A stretch of 64,000 nucleotides of DNA from a virus (Duplodnaviria > Caudoviricetes). The notes below the pieces were generated by a model that saw nothing but the letters and a program-made list of their open reading frames with translations, ran no database searches and was not told the DNA's origin. A program made the position numbers and the translations under genes. Location: positions 96,001 to 160,000 of IMG/VR virus record IMGVR_UViG_3300042275_000518; one strand, given 5' to 3'. Below, piece after piece: positions 6,438 through 9,564 of the stretch. Each line of letters starts with the position of its first letter. Positions within the stretch are counted from its first letter, which is position 1.

Positions 6438-8576
6438 TTACATGTAAGTTGCAATCTTTTCTAGGTCATACGGAGTGATGTCTCCATCTTCCGCAATCAC
6501 TATGTCTGCATCTTCTCGGTTATCAACAATTTCACCACGAGCTTCGGCATTTAGCACAAAGATATCGTATACACTCAATCTGTTACGATCGATGTAAGAA
6601 CGAATATGGTCGAAGATTGCGTCACTTTGAGATGTTGCAACTCGTGTAGAACGGTTAGCATGCATATTCACATCTAACCAAACAACTTCTTTTTCTTCAA
6701 GATTGATAAGATAACTTATCGCTGATCCTGAAGGAGAAGTCATTCTAAAGATATTTTCAACCGTTTTAGGGTCAAAAGTTTTACCTTTAGTTAATTCTTC
6801 TCTAGGCATAAATCCACCAAAGACTTCATGGAATTCCTTGAATTGTGGGCCGCTAAAGACATTATTTGTCAACGCAATGTAATGAATACCTTGTGCAAAT
6901 GCTTCATCAAGTTTTACGTCAATGAATTCACTTGCTCCGCGGCTTCCATCTACGATGTCACCTGAGTGAGTTACGACTGTGCTGTAATCACGACTATAAC
7001 TATGCCAGCTAACTTCACCAATATATTTACCGTTTTCATCGTAGAACAATGCAGCGGTATCAATGTCAGTACGTTGTCCTGGCGTATGCCAATAAGTGAA
7101 GAATCGAACGTTTTTACCTTCTATTTTGAATTTACTACCTTTAGCTGGAATTTTCACTCCATCAGAAGCAGTTCTTTCATCAGTAGGTAGAGCATAGTTT
7201 TTCATTTCTTCCGAAATGTAGACTTTACCCATTTCTTCACGTTCTGCGTATGCATTACGCAATGCAGTCTTAACAGAGTCTTGAATGTTAAGAACAAGTT
7301 CAGGTGCAAGAGCTCCTAAGTTATTGTCGATGACTTTAACTTTTGAAGATTTACCTTTGAGTACGAATACTCTCTTGTCTTTTTGTTCAAGTCTGTCTTC
7401 AAAGTGTTCGAATAATTGAATAAGTACTGGACTAGCCACTTCTTTTCCAACTTCTCCAAATGCTTCTAAAACTGCTTTTGTATCAAATCCAGCTTCTCTG
7501 ACTAGTAAGTCAAGCTTTCTAGCAAATTCACCAGGTCTTGATTTCAACATTTTAAGTACAGATTCAGTATCTCTCTCAGCTAATGCTTTTTCAAGATTAG
7601 AATTGAAAGTACGAATTTTTCCATACTCATTTTCGTTTCTAAGTTTTTGGAACGCTTTGAAAGCCTTTGTATAACGTTTAGAATATTCACCTGGGTGAAG
7701 TCTTTCTCCTAAACGAGTCCATTGACCTTGGTAACGTTTCATATCCTCAGTAACGTTTTTCTTGCTTGCTACTGCATCGATTAAAGATAACAATGTTCTA
7801 CGAGTAGAACGATTGAAATTTTTGAATCGAGTGTTTTCAGTAAGCGTTTCATCACCATTTGATAGTGATGCAGCAAGGCGTAAGACATCATTGACTTGAG
7901 CTTTTTCAAACCATTTTGTCATATAAGATGCTTTAGTATCTCTGTCGAGAACTGTTGTATCTTTATGATTAATGAAATAAGAAGTTACAAAAGCCAGATT
8001 TTCTTTCATAGGTACTTCTTCTGGAAGAGCTTTTGCGCCATATGTGTTGATTAATTCAAGAACACGTTCTTTATTAGCATCAGAGATACTAGTACGTGAG
8101 CTTAAGAAATCAACAGAGATTTGTGCAAGAACTTTATCAGTTTCTTCCATTGTGATTACTGACAACACACGAGGTTTTGTCTTTTCATCAAATGGCAAAC
8201 GATGTTGCTCATCTTGGAAGTCTGATAGTTTGAATTCTCCACCAGTTAAATAATGCATGATTGCATTAAAATACCATTGGCCTTCCTCAAGGTTGTAAAC
8301 ATCCTCTGGGAAGTTTTTATAGAAAGTCACATGTTGAACGTGATCTCCCTTGCTTTGTTTCAATAGTCCAAATGTTGAACTATAGAACTCTGCCAAATCT
8401 TGTTCACTAAATGTTGAGATTTTTTCGATACTTTCAGTATCAAGAATATAACCAACACTTGCAAAACTTTCTAATAATTTTCCGATAAGTGTCTCTCCCA
8501 CACCTTCGGTACTTGGAGTTGAACTAGTTGCTACGTAACCTTTTACTAACAATAATTCTTTAATTTCTTTCTTCAT
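6438..8576 (-). CDS. Large helical protein with C-terminal TerD-like domain (candidate Ro60/TROVE-like RNA-binding protein)
   Basis: C-term DIDTAALFYD...HSGDIVDG...ASEFIDV is TerD-like; FYKNFPEDV, LGERLHPGE, RPGEFARKLD motifs; RBS AGGAG; function inferred. Confidence 0.7.
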   Translation of the reverse strand: MKKEIKELLLVKGYVATSSTPSTEGVGETLIGKLLESFASVGYILDTESIEKISTFSEQDLAEFYSSTFGLLKQSKGDHVQHVTFYKNFPEDVYNLEEGQWYFNAIMHYLTGGEFKLSDFQDEQHRLPFDEKTKPRVLSVITMEETDKVLAQISVDFLSSRTSISDANKERVLELINTYGAKALPEEVPMKENLAFVTSYFINHKDTTVLDRDTKASYMTKWFEKAQVNDVLRLAASLSNGDETLTENTRFKNFNRSTRRTLLSLIDAVASKKNVTEDMKRYQGQWTRLGERLHPGEYSKRYTKAFKAFQKLRNENEYGKIRTFNSNLEKALAERDTESVLKMLKSRPGEFARKLDLLVREAGFDTKAVLEAFGEVGKEVASPVLIQLFEHFEDRLEQKDKRVFVLKGKSSKVKVIDNNLGALAPELVLNIQDSVKTALRNAYAEREEMGKVYISEEMKNYALPTDERTASDGVKIPAKGSKFKIEGKNVRFFTYWHTPGQRTDIDTAALFYDENGKYIGEVSWHSYSRDYSTVVTHSGDIVDGSRGASEFIDVKLDEAFAQGIHYIALTNNVFSGPQFKEFHEVFGGFMPREELTKGKTFDPKTVENIFRMTSPSGSAISYLINLEEKEVVWLDVNMHANRSTRVATSQSDAIFDHIRSYIDRNRLSVYDIFVLNAEARGEIVDNREDADIVIAEDGDITPYDLEKIATYM

Positions 8577-8624
8577 TTTTGTTCTCCTTTTCTGGCCTCA
8601 TTGACCGATAAATTTTTTATAATA

Positions 8625-9564
8625 ACCTGGGAATGCTTTAACTAATTTGTAGTAGGTCCAGGATCATAGGAAACCCATGATCTCCGGATCTTTCGATCTA
8701 TTAGAAGTAAGCTAAAAGATAGCCAGGTGTATTAACGAAAGAAAGCCGGTAATTAAATAACTTTTATTCATCCATTTGAGTTTTTAGAAGTAAGTATATT
8801 ATAGCCGGCAATTGTAAATATACAAAATCTGATTGGTTTGATTCCTAGTCAAATTATTTTTCTTAAGTAGAGTGTTAAAAGCATAAATAAGTACACAATC
8901 AGAATTGCATTTATAAAAATAAGGTAATTTCATCACTGAAGTCAATTTAACGGATTGGTGGGGATACCCCCTAGAAGTAAGTAAATTGAATAGCCTTAAT
9001 TTTTAACAAAATAATGCTTGGAAAGTATTTATCTATCTTTACTAATGCTCTACCAGTTGAGCTACATGACCGTGGTCATGGCTGGATTCGAACCAACAAC
9101 CCTTAGTCCCTAATAGAAGTAAGACACAATATAGCCAAGCGTTATAAATATAATTTAAACTGGTAAGTCTATATCCTTTTATCACCCTAATCGCTCGTGT
9201 TACGGAGCGAATGTTGGATTCGAACCAACGATCTTATTAGAAGTATGATATTAGATAGCCAGTATTAAAATCAAATTTTACAGGTAATTTTACAACTATT
9301 ATATTATTGTATTATATTAGAAGTAAGTATATAAATAGCCTGCTTATAATAATCCGGTAAGTATTTGAGATTCAAAAAACGTTGTAATACAAATTGTAGA
9401 ATCTCCGTAGAGATTCCTCTCATCATATTATAAAATAGAAGTAACTCGAGATTTTCTTTATTTTTCAACGCGCCCATCTCTATAGCCGGAATTATAAATA
9501 TATTAAATCCAGGTAATTACATAACTATCTTTTACCAATTAGAAGTAAGTATAGCATAGCCTGG
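8625..9564 (-). repeat. Array of 8 Y-RNA-like ncRNA units (8625-8728, 8745-8809, 8915-9004, 9011-9145, 9159-9263, 9281-9342, 9345-9497, 9509-9564)
   Basis: Each unit (sense): closing stem xxGGCTAT...(C)TTACTTCTA + variable insert + ...TT(A/T/C)CCxx pairing back to the 5' end; closing stems covary. Confidence 0.85.

What the first reader, a model, noticed from the sequence alone, without database searches (positions are those of the whole stretch)
6438..9564. Array of eight Y-RNA-like ncRNAs with variable cargo upstream of a large helical/TerD protein: candidate undescribed RNP system
Seen: eight tandem units on the gene's strand. Each has a covarying closing helix (CCUGG/CCAGG, GCCGG/CCGGC, AAGG/CCUU, CUUGG/CCAAG, ACUGG/CCAGU), a conserved GGCUAU / UU(A/U/C)CC internal loop, a second helix and an invariant UACUUCU. 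Each then carries a different 13-75 nt insert (plain loops, double hairpins, a GGGG-UAU-CCCC-ACCA mini-helix, or tRNA modules). A ninth copy sits 6 kb away. Established: bacterial Ro60/Rsr genes are flanked by Y RNAs built from a protein-binding stem plus an effector module. Inference: the adjacent 712-aa protein (no canonical vWA seen; TerD-like C-terminus) binds the constant stem. The swappable modules would then retarget it or act as decoys for host tRNA-cleaving or RNA-sensing defences.
Basis: partly seen in the sequence, partly recalled or inferred. Interest (0 to 1): 0.92.

Follow-up and report, generated by a model that had tools for sequence, protein, structure and literature searches.

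The report
Ro60-like protein with partner RNA array
A large phage carries nine small folded RNAs built on one constant "handle" but tipped with different modules (several copy parts of tRNA), next to an unstudied 712-residue protein whose fold resembles the RNA-binding Ro60 ring; the same RNA-protein pair recurs in hundreds of bacteria and phages, so it is probably an undescribed cousin of the Ro60/Y-RNA particle, though binding has not been shown.

Summary
Eight tandem units lie at 8625-9564 on the minus strand and a ninth at 2637-2715. Each has a covarying closing stem, GGCUAU, a second helix, UACUUCUA, a variable insert and UU(A/U/C)CC.

They belong to a large RNA family that is absent from Rfam 15. 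A covariance model built mostly from other loci finds 389 copies in 160 loci that encode homologues of the adjacent 712-aa protein, and every copy is on the gene's strand.

Co-occurrence also holds from the RNA side. In 61 related genomes, 27 have both RNA and protein, 33 have neither and one has the RNA alone. In 151 Bacillota genomes the RNA occurs only in the two that carry the protein.

The protein has an alpha-solenoid whose best structural matches among 48,161 chains are three Ro60 structures (Z 10.0, 8.1 and 6.8), and a TerD beta-sandwich (Z 13.9). It shows no sequence match to TROVE and no vWA/MIDAS motif.

Unit 5 carries a YrlA-type tRNA mimic on the new handle. Neighbours that recur, in a minority of loci, are tRNA genes, RtcB, Thg1 and CCA-adding enzymes.

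Most likely this is an undescribed Ro60/Y-RNA-like particle acting on tRNA or RNA damage. Binding, expression and function are untested. Earlier notes of this scan report the same system on other DNA.

The parts
6438..8576 (-). Gene for the 712-aa protein P0001. It has an N-terminal alpha-solenoid (about residues 140-400, Ro60-like fold), a small alpha/beta region, a TerD beta-sandwich (about 484-658) and a C-terminal alpha/beta tail.
   Evidence: ORF. AF2 model with pLDDT 85. TerD match 2qz7_B Z 13.9 and Ro60 matches 9l5y_B Z 10.0, 2nvo_A Z 8.1, 1yvp_A Z 6.8. N-terminal model alone: Ro60 takes ranks 1 and 2 of 48,161 chains. phrog_33734 E 3.9e-87, function unknown. NF041916 at 340.7 bits, below its cut-off of 600.
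9509..9564 (-). U1: minimal unit with closing stem CCAGG/CCUGG and a plain loop. It starts 12 nt downstream of tRNA-Leu(taa).
   Evidence: Model R1 gives 26.9 bits, E 2.8e-5.
9353..9490 (-). U2: divergent long unit with closing stem UCCGG/CCGGA. It has a 31-nt insertion before UUACUUCUA and a long insert containing a GGAAUCUCU/GGAGAUUCU hairpin.
   Evidence: Motif match. Descriptor match. Not recovered by R1.
9280..9343 (-). U3: minimal unit with closing stem GCAGG/CCUGU and an A/U-rich loop.
   Evidence: R1 gives 37.8 bits, E 1.9e-8.
9159..9263 (-). U4: its module is a T-arm look-alike (GUUGG-UUCGAAU-CCAAC) followed by a second hairpin (UCGCUC/GAGCGA).
   Evidence: R1 gives 26.2 bits and this unit was not in the seed alignment. 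Weak Rfam tRNA match, E 9.5.
9016..9140 (-). U5: its module is a YrlA-type permuted tRNA mimic (T-arm, closed acceptor-like hairpin, D-arm) mounted on the new handle.
   Evidence: Rfam YrlA RF02553 model positions 23-85 of 114, 44.3 bits, E 2.7e-8, below the gathering score of 69. R1 with filters off gives 16.5 bits, E 0.0055.
8920..8998 (-). U6: its module is a GGGG-GUAU-CCCC mini-helix followed by ACCA, which resembles an acceptor end. It has an extra UUCA-GUGA-UGAA hairpin on the 3' side.
   Evidence: R1 gives 23.2 bits and this unit was not in the seed alignment. All tRNA genes of the island encode a 3' CCA.
8745..8809 (-). U7: minimal unit with closing stem GCCGG/CCGGC.
   Evidence: R1 gives 38.7 bits, E 1e-8.
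8625..8728 (-). U8: its module is two hairpins (GAUC-GAAA-GAUC and a 9-bp GAUCAUGGG/CCUAUGAUC stem). The unit ends 48 nt before the start codon of the protein gene, with an AAGGAG ribosome-binding site in between.
   Evidence: R1 with filters off gives 31.6 bits, E 2.3e-7.
2637..2715 (-). U9: remote ninth unit between tRNA-Asp and tRNA-Lys. Its loop holds a 5-bp stem with the 7-nt loop CUGACAC, which has the geometry of an anticodon arm.
   Evidence: Best R1 match in the window, 40.1 bits, E 4.2e-9. Fold. Compared with the phage's own tRNA anticodon arms: nearest is tRNA-Asp, 5 mismatches in 17 nt.
1500..10484 (-). Context: a tRNA island of 18 tRNA genes on the same strand that encloses the RNA array and the protein gene.
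   Evidence: ARAGORN. Rfam.

Best explanation
The locus encodes a two-part ribonucleoprotein system built like Ro60/Y RNA but belonging to a different, undescribed family.

The protein is a 712-aa Ro60-like alpha-solenoid that carries a TerD beta-sandwich where Ro60 has its vWA domain.

The partners are nine small RNAs. Each RNA has a constant handle:
- a closing stem ending in two invariant G-C pairs;
- an asymmetric internal loop, CUAU opposite UUA/UUU;
- a covarying second helix;
- UUACUUCUA at the 5' side of the apical loop and (U)AG at its 3' side.

I infer that this handle is the protein's binding site.

The apical position holds an exchangeable module: a plain loop, hairpins, a YrlA-type tRNA mimic, a T-arm, an acceptor-like mini-helix with ACCA, or an anticodon-arm-like hairpin.

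The array lies inside the phage's tRNA island. I found no convincing terminator between the array and the gene, so it is probably transcribed with the tRNAs and the gene and then cut into separate RNAs (inferred).

By analogy with Rsr-YrlA-RtcB, and from the recurrent neighbours, the particle most likely works in tRNA/RNA quality control or repair. The modules would tether the protein to tRNA-handling enzymes or to damaged tRNA-like substrates. In phages this would keep translation running against host tRNA-cutting nucleases (inferred).

Shown: the RNA structure, the RNA-gene partnership, the fold resemblance and the genomic context.
Inferred: binding, processing and function.
For: RNA family:
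- RNAalifold on 83 units from 70-odd loci predicts the two helices, and 13 of 16 pairs show compensatory changes.
- 94.2% of cells are paired, against 56.5% in shuffles. The covariation score is 0.834, against 0.163 in shuffles and 0.12-0.18 in slid controls.
- Helix 2 was not part of my search descriptor. It is 90.6% paired and 8 of its 9 pairs covary.

Partnership:
- R1 finds 116 copies in 78 of 80 bacterial loci and 273 copies in 80 viral loci. All are on the gene strand and next to the gene.
- Unbiased genome samples give 27 both, 1 RNA only, 0 protein only and 33 neither in 61 genomes.
- In 151 Bacillota genomes only the same 2 genomes carry either part, and every RNA hit abuts a gene copy.
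- No protein-coding neighbour is conserved across the 160 loci.

Fold:
- Ro60 structures are the best non-TerD matches of the whole model and the top two matches of the N-terminal model.

Y-RNA likeness:
- U5 matches the tRNA-like core of Rfam YrlA, E 2.7e-8.
- The same permuted T-arm/acceptor/D-arm module sits on this handle in at least 14 distinct units elsewhere.

Function hints:
- 29 of 58 viral loci have co-oriented tRNA genes within 4 kb.
- Recurrent neighbours are Thg1, a CCA-adding/poly(A) polymerase family enzyme, a metallophosphoesterase and RtcB.
- In Lachnospiraceae the order is RtcB, unit, gene, tRNA-mimic unit.
- The phage has two RNA-ligase-family genes.
Against: - No experiment or RNA-seq shows that the RNAs are made, processed or bound.
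- Sequence homology to TROVE is not detectable: no Pfam hit and hhalign probability 0.3%.
- The fold scores (Z 8-10) lie in a range that helical repeats can reach by common arrangement alone (notes).
- The canonical Y-RNA protein-binding motif (GNCGAA / CGAA; PMC4201824, PMC12135203) is absent from the handle.
- RNA-repair neighbours occur in a minority of loci only, and this phage record (74% complete) has no RtcB, Thg1 or CCA enzyme.
- In many bacteria the unit ends within about 10-70 nt of the start codon. A cis-regulatory leader role is therefore not excluded.
Confidence: 0.65

Rival explanations
1. The units are cis-acting leader or trailer elements of the TerD-type mRNA. For example, they could be autoregulatory binding sites through which the protein controls its own translation or stability, and not stable trans-acting RNAs.
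For: In bacteria most units sit directly upstream of the gene. The median gap from unit end to the open frame is 69 nt, and it is about 10-20 nt in Brevibacillus. No convincing promoter or terminator separates the array from the gene in the window. Strict co-occurrence fits a cis element as well as a partner RNA.
Against: 92 of 276 units lie downstream of the gene. Phages carry arrays of up to 8-9 units. U9 lies 5.9 kb from the array, among tRNA genes. Modules are elaborate tRNA mimics. Some genomes keep the RNA beside a broken or missing gene. Canonical Y RNAs are also co-transcribed with rsr (PMC4201824), so a leader position does not argue against a trans role.
Confidence: 0.12
2. In the phage the RNAs act mainly as free decoys or sponges for host tRNA-targeting nucleases or RNA sensors. 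The protein would serve only to stabilise or load them and would have no Ro60-like quality-control activity.
For: Modules copy the T-arm, acceptor end and anticodon-arm geometry. Arrays are expanded and more elaborate in phages: 3.4 R1 hits per viral locus against 1.45 per bacterial locus, and 58 of 172 viral units are longer than 95 nt against 12 of 104 bacterial ones. The array sits in a tRNA island beside a tmRNA.
Against: The same pair, with plain-loop units, is kept in hundreds of free-living bacteria of many phyla, where a decoy against one's own nucleases is hard to justify. No module matches any of the phage's own tRNA anticodon arms closely.
Confidence: 0.13
3. The bacterial pair is an anti-phage defence or stress-sensing module, as TerD-family proteins belong to Ter stress and phage-resistance systems. 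The phage copy would be a captured version used for superinfection exclusion or as a counter-measure.
For: It has a TerD domain. Ter systems are linked to phage resistance and occur in jumbo phages (PMC7824862). Its distribution is patchy, 2 of 151 Bacillota genomes sampled, as is typical of accessory and defence genes. Relatives exist with ankyrin or RING fusions.
Against: There is no PADLOC match. No other Ter genes, and no effector gene such as a nuclease, toxin or membrane protein, recur beside it. The neighbours that do recur are RNA-repair enzymes and tRNAs.
Confidence: 0.08
4. The units are non-functional repeats: REP- or MITE-like elements, decayed tRNA genes, or phage promoter/terminator repeats that happen to lie near the gene.
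For: They are short, tandem and AT-rich, and they lie among tRNA genes and homing-endonuclease genes.
Against: Compensatory changes occur in two helices across phyla. Strand and neighbour specificity is strict, 389 of 389 on the gene strand. Genome-wide co-occurrence with one gene holds in both directions. Counts of promoter-like and terminator-like sites are near shuffle expectation.
Confidence: 0.02

Closest known systems
Ro60 (Rsr) with bacterial and phage Y RNAs, especially YrlA/YrlB (Rfam RF02553; Chen et al. 2014, PMC4201824; Thermus phage phiLo Ro60-Yrl, PDB 9L5Y, PMC12135203; D. radiodurans Rsr, PDB 2NVO)
   Same: - A large alpha-solenoid protein whose nearest solved folds are Ro60.
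- One to several small RNAs encoded beside it on the same strand.
- RNAs built as a 5'-3' stem plus internal loop (the presumed protein site) plus an apical effector module.
- A permuted tRNA mimic (T-arm, closed acceptor hairpin, D-arm) that scores on the YrlA model.
- Occasional linkage to RtcB, and presence in both bacteria and large phages.
   Different: - No sequence similarity to TROVE.
- A TerD beta-sandwich is present, and there is no vWA/MIDAS motif.
- The RNA handle has GGCUAU ... UUCCUUCU (UUACUUCU in this phage) ... UAG ... UUUCC in place of the GNCGAA/CGAA motif.
- No unit reaches the YrlA gathering score.
- Most units have no tRNA-like domain.
- Phage arrays reach nine units, against one to four Y RNAs.
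- Canonical TROVE proteins coexist with it in some genomes, so it is a separate system.
TerD family (Pfam PF02342; PDB 2KXT, 2QZ7), calcium-binding proteins of the Ter stress-response systems
   Same: Residues about 484-658 adopt the TerD beta-sandwich (Z 13.9, rmsd 2.8 A over 154 residues; Foldseek E 1.2e-4). A conserved HSGD...G.GA.EF.D stretch is present.
   Different: The Pfam score is below threshold, 16.8 against 25.3 bits. The TerD unit is one domain of a 700-aa protein dominated by a solenoid. No other ter genes are nearby. TerD proteins are not known to partner RNAs.
NCBIfam NF041916, MXAN_6230/SCO0854 family RING domain-containing protein
   Same: It gives a clear full-length sequence match, E 1.8e-101 for P0001 and up to 5e-144 for Bacillus relatives. 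It is the only curated model that recognises the protein.
   Different: The score of 340.7 bits is far below the equivalog cut-off of 600. The match covers the part shared with the 842-position model, and the RING region is not evident in the 712-aa protein. I found no paper on either named member, so the name adds no function.

Membership tests
Ro60/Rsr (TROVE + vWA) | TROVE domain recognisable by sequence (Pfam PF05731) | tested here: not met
   No TROVE hit at E <= 1. No PF05731 hit anywhere in the virus record, while the control genomes scored. hhalign of the family alignment against 21 canonical TROVE proteins gave probability 0.3%, E 0.23.
Ro60/Rsr (TROVE + vWA) | Ring-shaped HEAT-repeat solenoid fold | tested here: inconclusive
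   Ro60 chains are the best non-TerD matches: 9l5y_B Z 10.0 with 314 residues aligned, 2nvo_A Z 8.1 with 323, 1yvp_A Z 6.8 with 316. They take ranks 1 and 2 for the N-terminal model, Z 9.9 and 8.5. These Z values are within the range helical repeats can reach by chance arrangement. I could not inspect ring closure.
Ro60/Rsr (TROVE + vWA) | C-terminal vWA domain with MIDAS motif (DxSxS) | tested here: not met
   No vWA match in Pfam. A TerD sandwich fills residues 484-658. In the best (non-significant) hhalign stretch, the Ro60 LALDVSGSM segment faces a gap in this family.
Ro60/Rsr (TROVE + vWA) | Cognate structured small RNAs encoded next to the gene | tested here: met
Y RNA / YrlA (Rfam RF02553, RF00019) | Score at or above the Rfam gathering threshold | tested here: not met
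   There is no gathering-level hit in the window. The best is U5 at 44.3 bits against 69, covering model positions 23-85 only.
Y RNA / YrlA (Rfam RF02553, RF00019) | Ro-binding motif GNCGAA(N)G / CGAA in the 5' strand of the stem or bulge (PMC4201824, PMC12135203) | tested here: not met
   All nine handles have GGCUAU at that place. Across 83 units the consensus is GGC(U/C)AU.
Y RNA / YrlA (Rfam RF02553, RF00019) | 5'-3' terminal stem plus internal loop plus apical module | tested here: met
Y RNA / YrlA (Rfam RF02553, RF00019) | tRNA-like domain (T-arm, acceptor-like hairpin, D-arm) | tested here: met
   Met for U5 and partly for U4, which has a T-arm only. Absent from the other seven units. 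Present on this handle in at least 14 distinct units of other loci.
Y RNA / YrlA (Rfam RF02553, RF00019) | Physical binding by the partner protein | not testable with these tools
   This needs RIP or EMSA.
TerD (PF02342) | TerD beta-sandwich domain | tested here: met
   The fold matches at Z 13.9, Foldseek E 1.2e-4, probability 1.00. The Pfam sequence score is sub-threshold.
NCBIfam NF041916 RING_SCO0854 | Score above the equivalog cut-off (600 bits) | tested here: not met
   340.7 bits for P0001, and 452-482 bits for two Bacillaceae relatives.
Known anti-phage defence systems (PADLOC-DB 2.0) | Match to any defence-system protein model | tested here: not met
   No match for P0001 or two bacterial relatives.

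The most novel reading that the evidence does not exclude
This is a second, independent or very anciently diverged lineage of Ro-type particles. A solenoid-TerD protein is programmed by arrays of interchangeable adaptor RNAs. Each RNA displays a different piece of tRNA (acceptor end, T-arm, anticodon arm, whole L-shape). Large phages would use the array as a multi-target hub to capture, repair or shield tRNAs from host anticodon nucleases. That would make it a new class of RNA-guided counter-defence.
Probability: 0.3. Interest if true: 0.9.

Novelty: new variant of a known kind. Interest (0 to 1): 0.8.

Why it matters
Ro60/Y RNA is the only known particle of its kind, and its bacterial role is still poorly understood. 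This pair has the same logic: a solenoid protein plus handle-and-module RNAs. It uses a different RNA handle, a TerD domain where Ro60 has vWA, and no detectable sequence kinship.

The family is large: 2,336 protein clusters at E <= 1e-30. It spans many bacterial phyla and many large phages.

It would give a natural comparison for asking what Ro-type particles do, and how one protein reads many RNA adaptors. It would add an RNA family to unannotated intergenic gaps. It would also assign a role to a widespread "hypothetical / TerD family" protein.

In phages, the placement in tRNA islands points to a testable link with the contest over tRNA cleavage. Cultured systems exist in which to test it: Priestia megaterium, Brevibacillus, Paenibacillus, Xanthomonas phage XacN1, Rhodococcus phage Weasels2 and Lactobacillus phage LpeD.

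Tried and rejected
- Near-identical DNA in 50,697 phage records: no match.
- Foldseek against PDB returned only TerD and generic repeat proteins, with no Ro60 in the top 50. The Ro60 likeness appeared only with the exhaustive VIA-align search.
- hhalign against canonical TROVE proteins: not significant.
- PDB sequence search: only weak TerD.
- ESM Atlas on the N-terminal part: only unnamed clusters below 0.9.
- PADLOC: nothing.
- Rfam at permissive thresholds on the array and on a high-scoring bacterial unit: only chance-level snoRNA-type hits besides YrlA and tRNA. Rfam at gathering level on 14 related loci: only tRNAs and riboswitches elsewhere.
- Promoter and terminator scan: near shuffle expectation, no clear signals.
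- A possible third helix between UUCC/UUAC and downstream GGAA/GUAA in the apical loop: I inspected it by eye in the alignment and dropped it because it is not consistent across units.
- The 110-nt spacer between U6 and U7: its fold is not better than shuffles, z -1.0.
- Match of unit hairpins to the phage's own tRNA anticodon arms: none closer than 5 mismatches in 17 nt.
I analysed neighbours by clustering ORFs of the fetched loci instead.
- Literature searches for TerD with Y RNA, TROVE, tRNA-like RNA, and for SCO0854 / MXAN_6230: I found no paper on this pair. Burroughs and Aravind 2016 (NAR) is not held in the library, so I could not check whether it mentions this family.

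
Full report
**Setting.** The window is bases 96,001-160,000 of a 189,901-bp IMG/VR virus record, estimated 74% complete. It is AT-rich. It carries 18 tRNA genes and a tmRNA on the minus strand between 376 and 10,484, three group I introns and split multisubunit RNA polymerase genes. 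The nearest relatives of those polymerase genes, at about 35% identity, are AR9/PBS1-like jumbo phages of Bacillus, Listeria and Staphylococcus. The host is therefore probably a member of the Bacillota (inferred).

**Observation.** Reading the minus strand of 8560-9700 shows eight tandem units, U1 9509-9564 to U8 8625-8728. Each has the same order of elements:
- a 5-6-bp closing stem whose inner two pairs are always G-C;
- CUAU;
- the 5' arm of a second helix;
- (U)UACUUCUA;
- a variable insert;
- the 3' arm of the second helix;
- a few nucleotides ending in UUA, UUU or UUC;
- CC plus the 3' arm of the closing stem.

The pattern GGCTAT followed within 4-34 nt by ACTTCTA occurs seven times, against 0.07 expected from shuffles. 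U2, with a longer gap, is the eighth. All are on the minus strand. A structural descriptor finds a ninth unit at 2637-2715, between tRNA-Asp and tRNA-Lys, and nothing on the plus strand.

**The RNA is a member of a large family.** The adjacent ORF (6438-8576, minus strand, 712 aa, P0001) has more than 550 full-length homologues of about 690 aa, mostly labelled "TerD family protein" or "hypothetical". I fetched 80 viral and 80 bacterial loci around such genes. A simple descriptor (GGCYAT, then YNCTTCT, then CC closing a stem of at least 5 bp) found these counts:
- 276 non-overlapping units on the gene strand in 137 of 160 loci;
- 12 units on the opposite strand;
- 4-11 units in shuffled loci.

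I aligned 83 short, non-redundant units, four of them from the window. The consensus is NNNN-GG-CUAU-(7 nt)-C-UUCCUUCU-(loop)-UAG-(7 nt)-GCUUU-CC-NNNN. RNAalifold, given no structure, predicts the two helices, and 13 of 16 pairs show compensatory changes.

For the two-helix structure the controls are as follows:

| Measure | Observed | Column shuffles | 3' partners slid by 1-3 columns |
|---|---|---|---|
| Cells paired | 94.2% | 56.5% | not quoted |
| Covariation score | 0.834 | 0.163 | 0.12-0.18 |

The closing stem was required by my descriptor, so its pairing is partly circular. Helix 2 was not required. It is 90.6% paired, and 8 of its 9 pairs covary.

The phage studied here uses a variant of the loop motif, UUACUUCU where most relatives have UUCCUUCU. 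It also has AAUUA-CC where they have GCUUU-CC.

**Covariance model and co-occurrence.** Model R1 has 67 positions and 15 base pairs.
- In the window it recovers six units with default filters, including U4 and U6, which were not in the seed.
- With filters off it recovers eight.
- U2 is missed. It has a 31-nt insertion in front of UUACUUCUA.
- There is no further copy in the rest of the virus record.
- In the 80 bacterial loci R1 finds 116 copies in 78 loci.
- In the 80 viral loci it finds 273 copies.
- All 389 copies are on the strand of the protein gene, directly upstream or downstream of it.

I also tested the reverse direction on whole genomes chosen without regard to the gene.
- In 151 Bacillota genomes the RNA (E <= 1e-5) occurs in two, and the protein (E <= 1e-10) occurs in the same two. 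Each of the four RNA hits lies within about 120 nt upstream of one of the three gene copies.
- In all 61 genomes of the order that contains Brevibacillus, 27 have both, one has the RNA alone, none has the protein alone and 33 have neither.

RNA and gene form an obligate pair.

No protein-coding neighbour is conserved across the 160 loci. The largest neighbour cluster covers nine loci. The pair is therefore self-contained.

**The protein.**
- Pfam gives only a sub-threshold TerD match.
- PHROGs places it in phrog_33734, of unknown function.
- NCBIfam gives the MXAN_6230/SCO0854 RING-domain family at 340.7 bits, below the 600-bit cut-off.
- PADLOC gives nothing.

An AlphaFold2 model built with 34 homologues (pLDDT 85, pTM 0.77) shows an alpha-solenoid, a small alpha/beta region, a beta-sandwich at about 484-658 and a C-terminal alpha/beta tail.

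Foldseek against PDB recognises only the TerD sandwich. An exhaustive structural comparison with 48,161 representative chains gives the following:

| Chain | Protein | Z | Residues aligned |
|---|---|---|---|
| 2qz7_B | TerD | 13.9 | 154 |
| 9l5y_B | Thermus phage phiLo Ro60 | 10.0 | 314 |
| 2nvo_A | Deinococcus Rsr | 8.1 | 323 |
| 1yvp_A | Xenopus Ro | 6.8 | 316 |

The best unrelated chain after these scores Z 6.5 with 156 residues aligned.

The N-terminal 467 residues, folded alone (pLDDT 87.7), again put the two prokaryotic Ro60 structures first, at Z 9.9 and 8.5. They cover residues 149-466 of the model and the TROVE ring of the targets.

The tool's own caution applies: Z below about 13 can arise between unrelated helical repeats. 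Even so, the same family takes the top ranks twice, with the longest alignments.

At the sequence level nothing links the two families. Profile-profile comparison with 21 canonical TROVE proteins gives probability 0.3%. The MIDAS segment of Ro60 has no counterpart.

Canonical TROVE proteins coexist with the TerD-type gene in two of five genomes checked. The two are therefore separate systems and not replacements of each other.

The family is large: 2,336 clusters at 50% identity with E <= 1e-30.

**The modules in this window.**
- U1, U3 and U7 have plain loops.
- U5 carries T-arm, closed hairpin and D-arm in the permuted order of YrlA. It matches positions 23-85 of the 114-position Rfam YrlA model at E 2.7e-8. 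Only the Rsr-binding stem of the model is missing, and it is replaced by the new handle.
- U4 has a T-arm look-alike plus a hairpin.
- U6 has a four-pair G-C mini-helix followed by ACCA. This is the same 3' end that all tRNA genes of this island encode.
- U8 has two hairpins.
- U9 has a five-pair stem with the seven-nucleotide loop CUGACAC (U at position 2, A at position 6), which is the geometry of an anticodon arm. It does not copy any tRNA of the phage: the nearest is tRNA-Asp, with 5 differences in 17 nt.

The YrlA-type module recurs on this handle in at least 14 distinct units of other phages and of Lachnospiraceae.

Phage loci have more units and more elaborate ones:

| Measure | Viral loci | Bacterial loci |
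|---|---|---|
| R1 hits per locus | 3.4 | 1.45 |
| Units longer than 95 nt | 58 of 172 | 12 of 104 |
| Units with a T-loop motif | 29 | 4 |

With nine units, this phage has one of the largest arrays seen.

**Context and function.**
- Half of the viral loci examined (29 of 58) have tRNA genes within 4 kb, all co-oriented with the gene, as in the window.
- The few protein neighbours that recur are tRNA and RNA end-healing or sealing enzymes:
  - Thg1-like, in nine loci about 355 nt upstream;
  - an enzyme of the CCA-adding/poly(A) polymerase family, in five loci;
  - a metallophosphoesterase, in four loci;
  - RtcB, in four Lachnospiraceae loci, 78 nt upstream on the same strand.
- In two of those Lachnospiraceae loci the order is RtcB, unit, gene, tRNA-mimic unit. 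This parallels the Salmonella rsr-yrlBA-rtcBA operon (PMC4201824).
- The phage record has no RtcB, Thg1 or CCA enzyme, but it has two genes of the RNA-ligase family PF09414.
- No convincing promoter or terminator separates the array from the gene or from the upstream tRNA-Leu, so co-transcription and processing are plausible (inferred).

**Explanation.** The best-supported reading is a ribonucleoprotein with the logic of Ro60/Y RNA. The constant handle is the protein's docking site. The apical module is an adaptor that brings the particle to tRNA-handling enzymes or to tRNA-like substrates. In phages this would serve to maintain the tRNA pool during infection.

The partnership and the RNA structure are shown. 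The Ro60-like fold is supported at moderate strength. Binding, processing and the tRNA-repair role are inferences.

I considered these rivals:
- The units are a cis-regulatory leader. This is plausible for the unit nearest the start codon in bacteria. It cannot explain downstream units, long arrays, the remote U9 or the tRNA mimics.
- The units are free decoys against tRNA nucleases. This fits phages but not bacteria.
- The pair is a defence or stress module related to Ter systems. No supporting neighbours or PADLOC hit were found.
- The units are non-functional repeats. This is refuted by covariation and strand-specific co-occurrence.

**Known or new.**
- Rfam 15 has no family for the handle.
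- No curated protein model names the function.
- Full-text searches found no paper on the pair.
- One relevant paper (Burroughs and Aravind 2016) is not in the held library and I could not check it.
- In cultured phages the gene is annotated "hypothetical protein" or "cytoplasmic protein", and the units lie in unannotated gaps. XacN1 has three units upstream of ORF396, Weasels2 has three downstream of gp266, and LpeD has one or two upstream of orf166.
- Earlier notes of this scan describe the same RNA-protein pair on other DNA. My tests were run independently and agree with them.

I class it as a new variant of a known kind. The principle is that of the Ro/Y RNP. The protein family, the domain make-up and the RNA handle are new.

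**Limits.** I could not inspect model coordinates, so ring closure and the position of TerD relative to the solenoid are not verified.

Noticed in passing
window 376-715 (-): A phage-encoded tmRNA with tag peptide ANTQELAFA sits at the end of the tRNA island. A related viral locus, L068, also has a tmRNA near its copy of the RNA-protein pair.
   Followed up: no
window 31050-32018 (-): Three group I introns lie in tandem within 1 kb (Rfam 111, 81 and 93 bits), presumably splitting one gene into several exons. I did not identify the host gene.
   Followed up: no
window 4025-4087 (-): Rfam calls a weak tRNA here (33.2 bits) that ARAGORN does not report. It may be a degenerate or unusual tRNA inside the island.
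   Followed up: no
window 5094-5534 (-) and 11246-12889 (-): HNH and homing-endonuclease ORFs are interspersed with the tRNA genes (phrog_1271, phrog_559/3339). The Weasels2 locus also has an HNH gene among the tRNAs next to its copy.
   Followed up: partly
window about 51145-51597 (-) and G000:C1:38318-38833 (-): There are two ORFs of the RNA-ligase family PF09414. One (377 aa, 74 bits) is outside the window. The other (414 aa, 27 bits) is inside it. This suggests the phage has RNA-sealing capacity of its own.
   Followed up: partly
Genomes G356, G365, G386, G403, G360 (order of Brevibacillus): Several genomes keep the RNA beside a split or broken copy of the protein gene. G386 is split cleanly at the solenoid/TerD junction, and G365 has three stop codons. 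G360 has a high-scoring RNA with no detectable protein gene.
   Followed up: no
L114 2623-3855 and 6127-6257; L126 6075-6206: In Lachnospiraceae MAGs an RtcB gene lies 78 nt upstream of the unit and gene, and a YrlA-type tRNA mimic on the new handle lies just downstream. This closely parallels the rsr-yrlBA-rtcBA arrangement.
   Followed up: partly
L192 (Xanthomonas phage XacN1) 2034-2413; L191 (Rhodococcus phage Weasels2) 4574-4931; L193 (Lactobacillus phage LpeD) 1977-2124: Cultured phages carry R1-positive units in unannotated gaps beside their copy of the gene. They offer ready experimental systems.
   Followed up: yes
Homologues P0103, P0111, P0149, P0203, P0235 (about 1060-1075 aa): Some relatives carry an N-terminal extension of about 370 residues with ankyrin repeats. 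NCBIfam's nearest model is a RING-domain form. Fused partner domains might hint at protein-protein functions.
   Followed up: no
window 8810-8919 (-): An unusually long 110-nt spacer separates U6 and U7 and contains an imperfect 11-bp inverted repeat. Its fold is no better than shuffles (z -1.0).
   Followed up: yes
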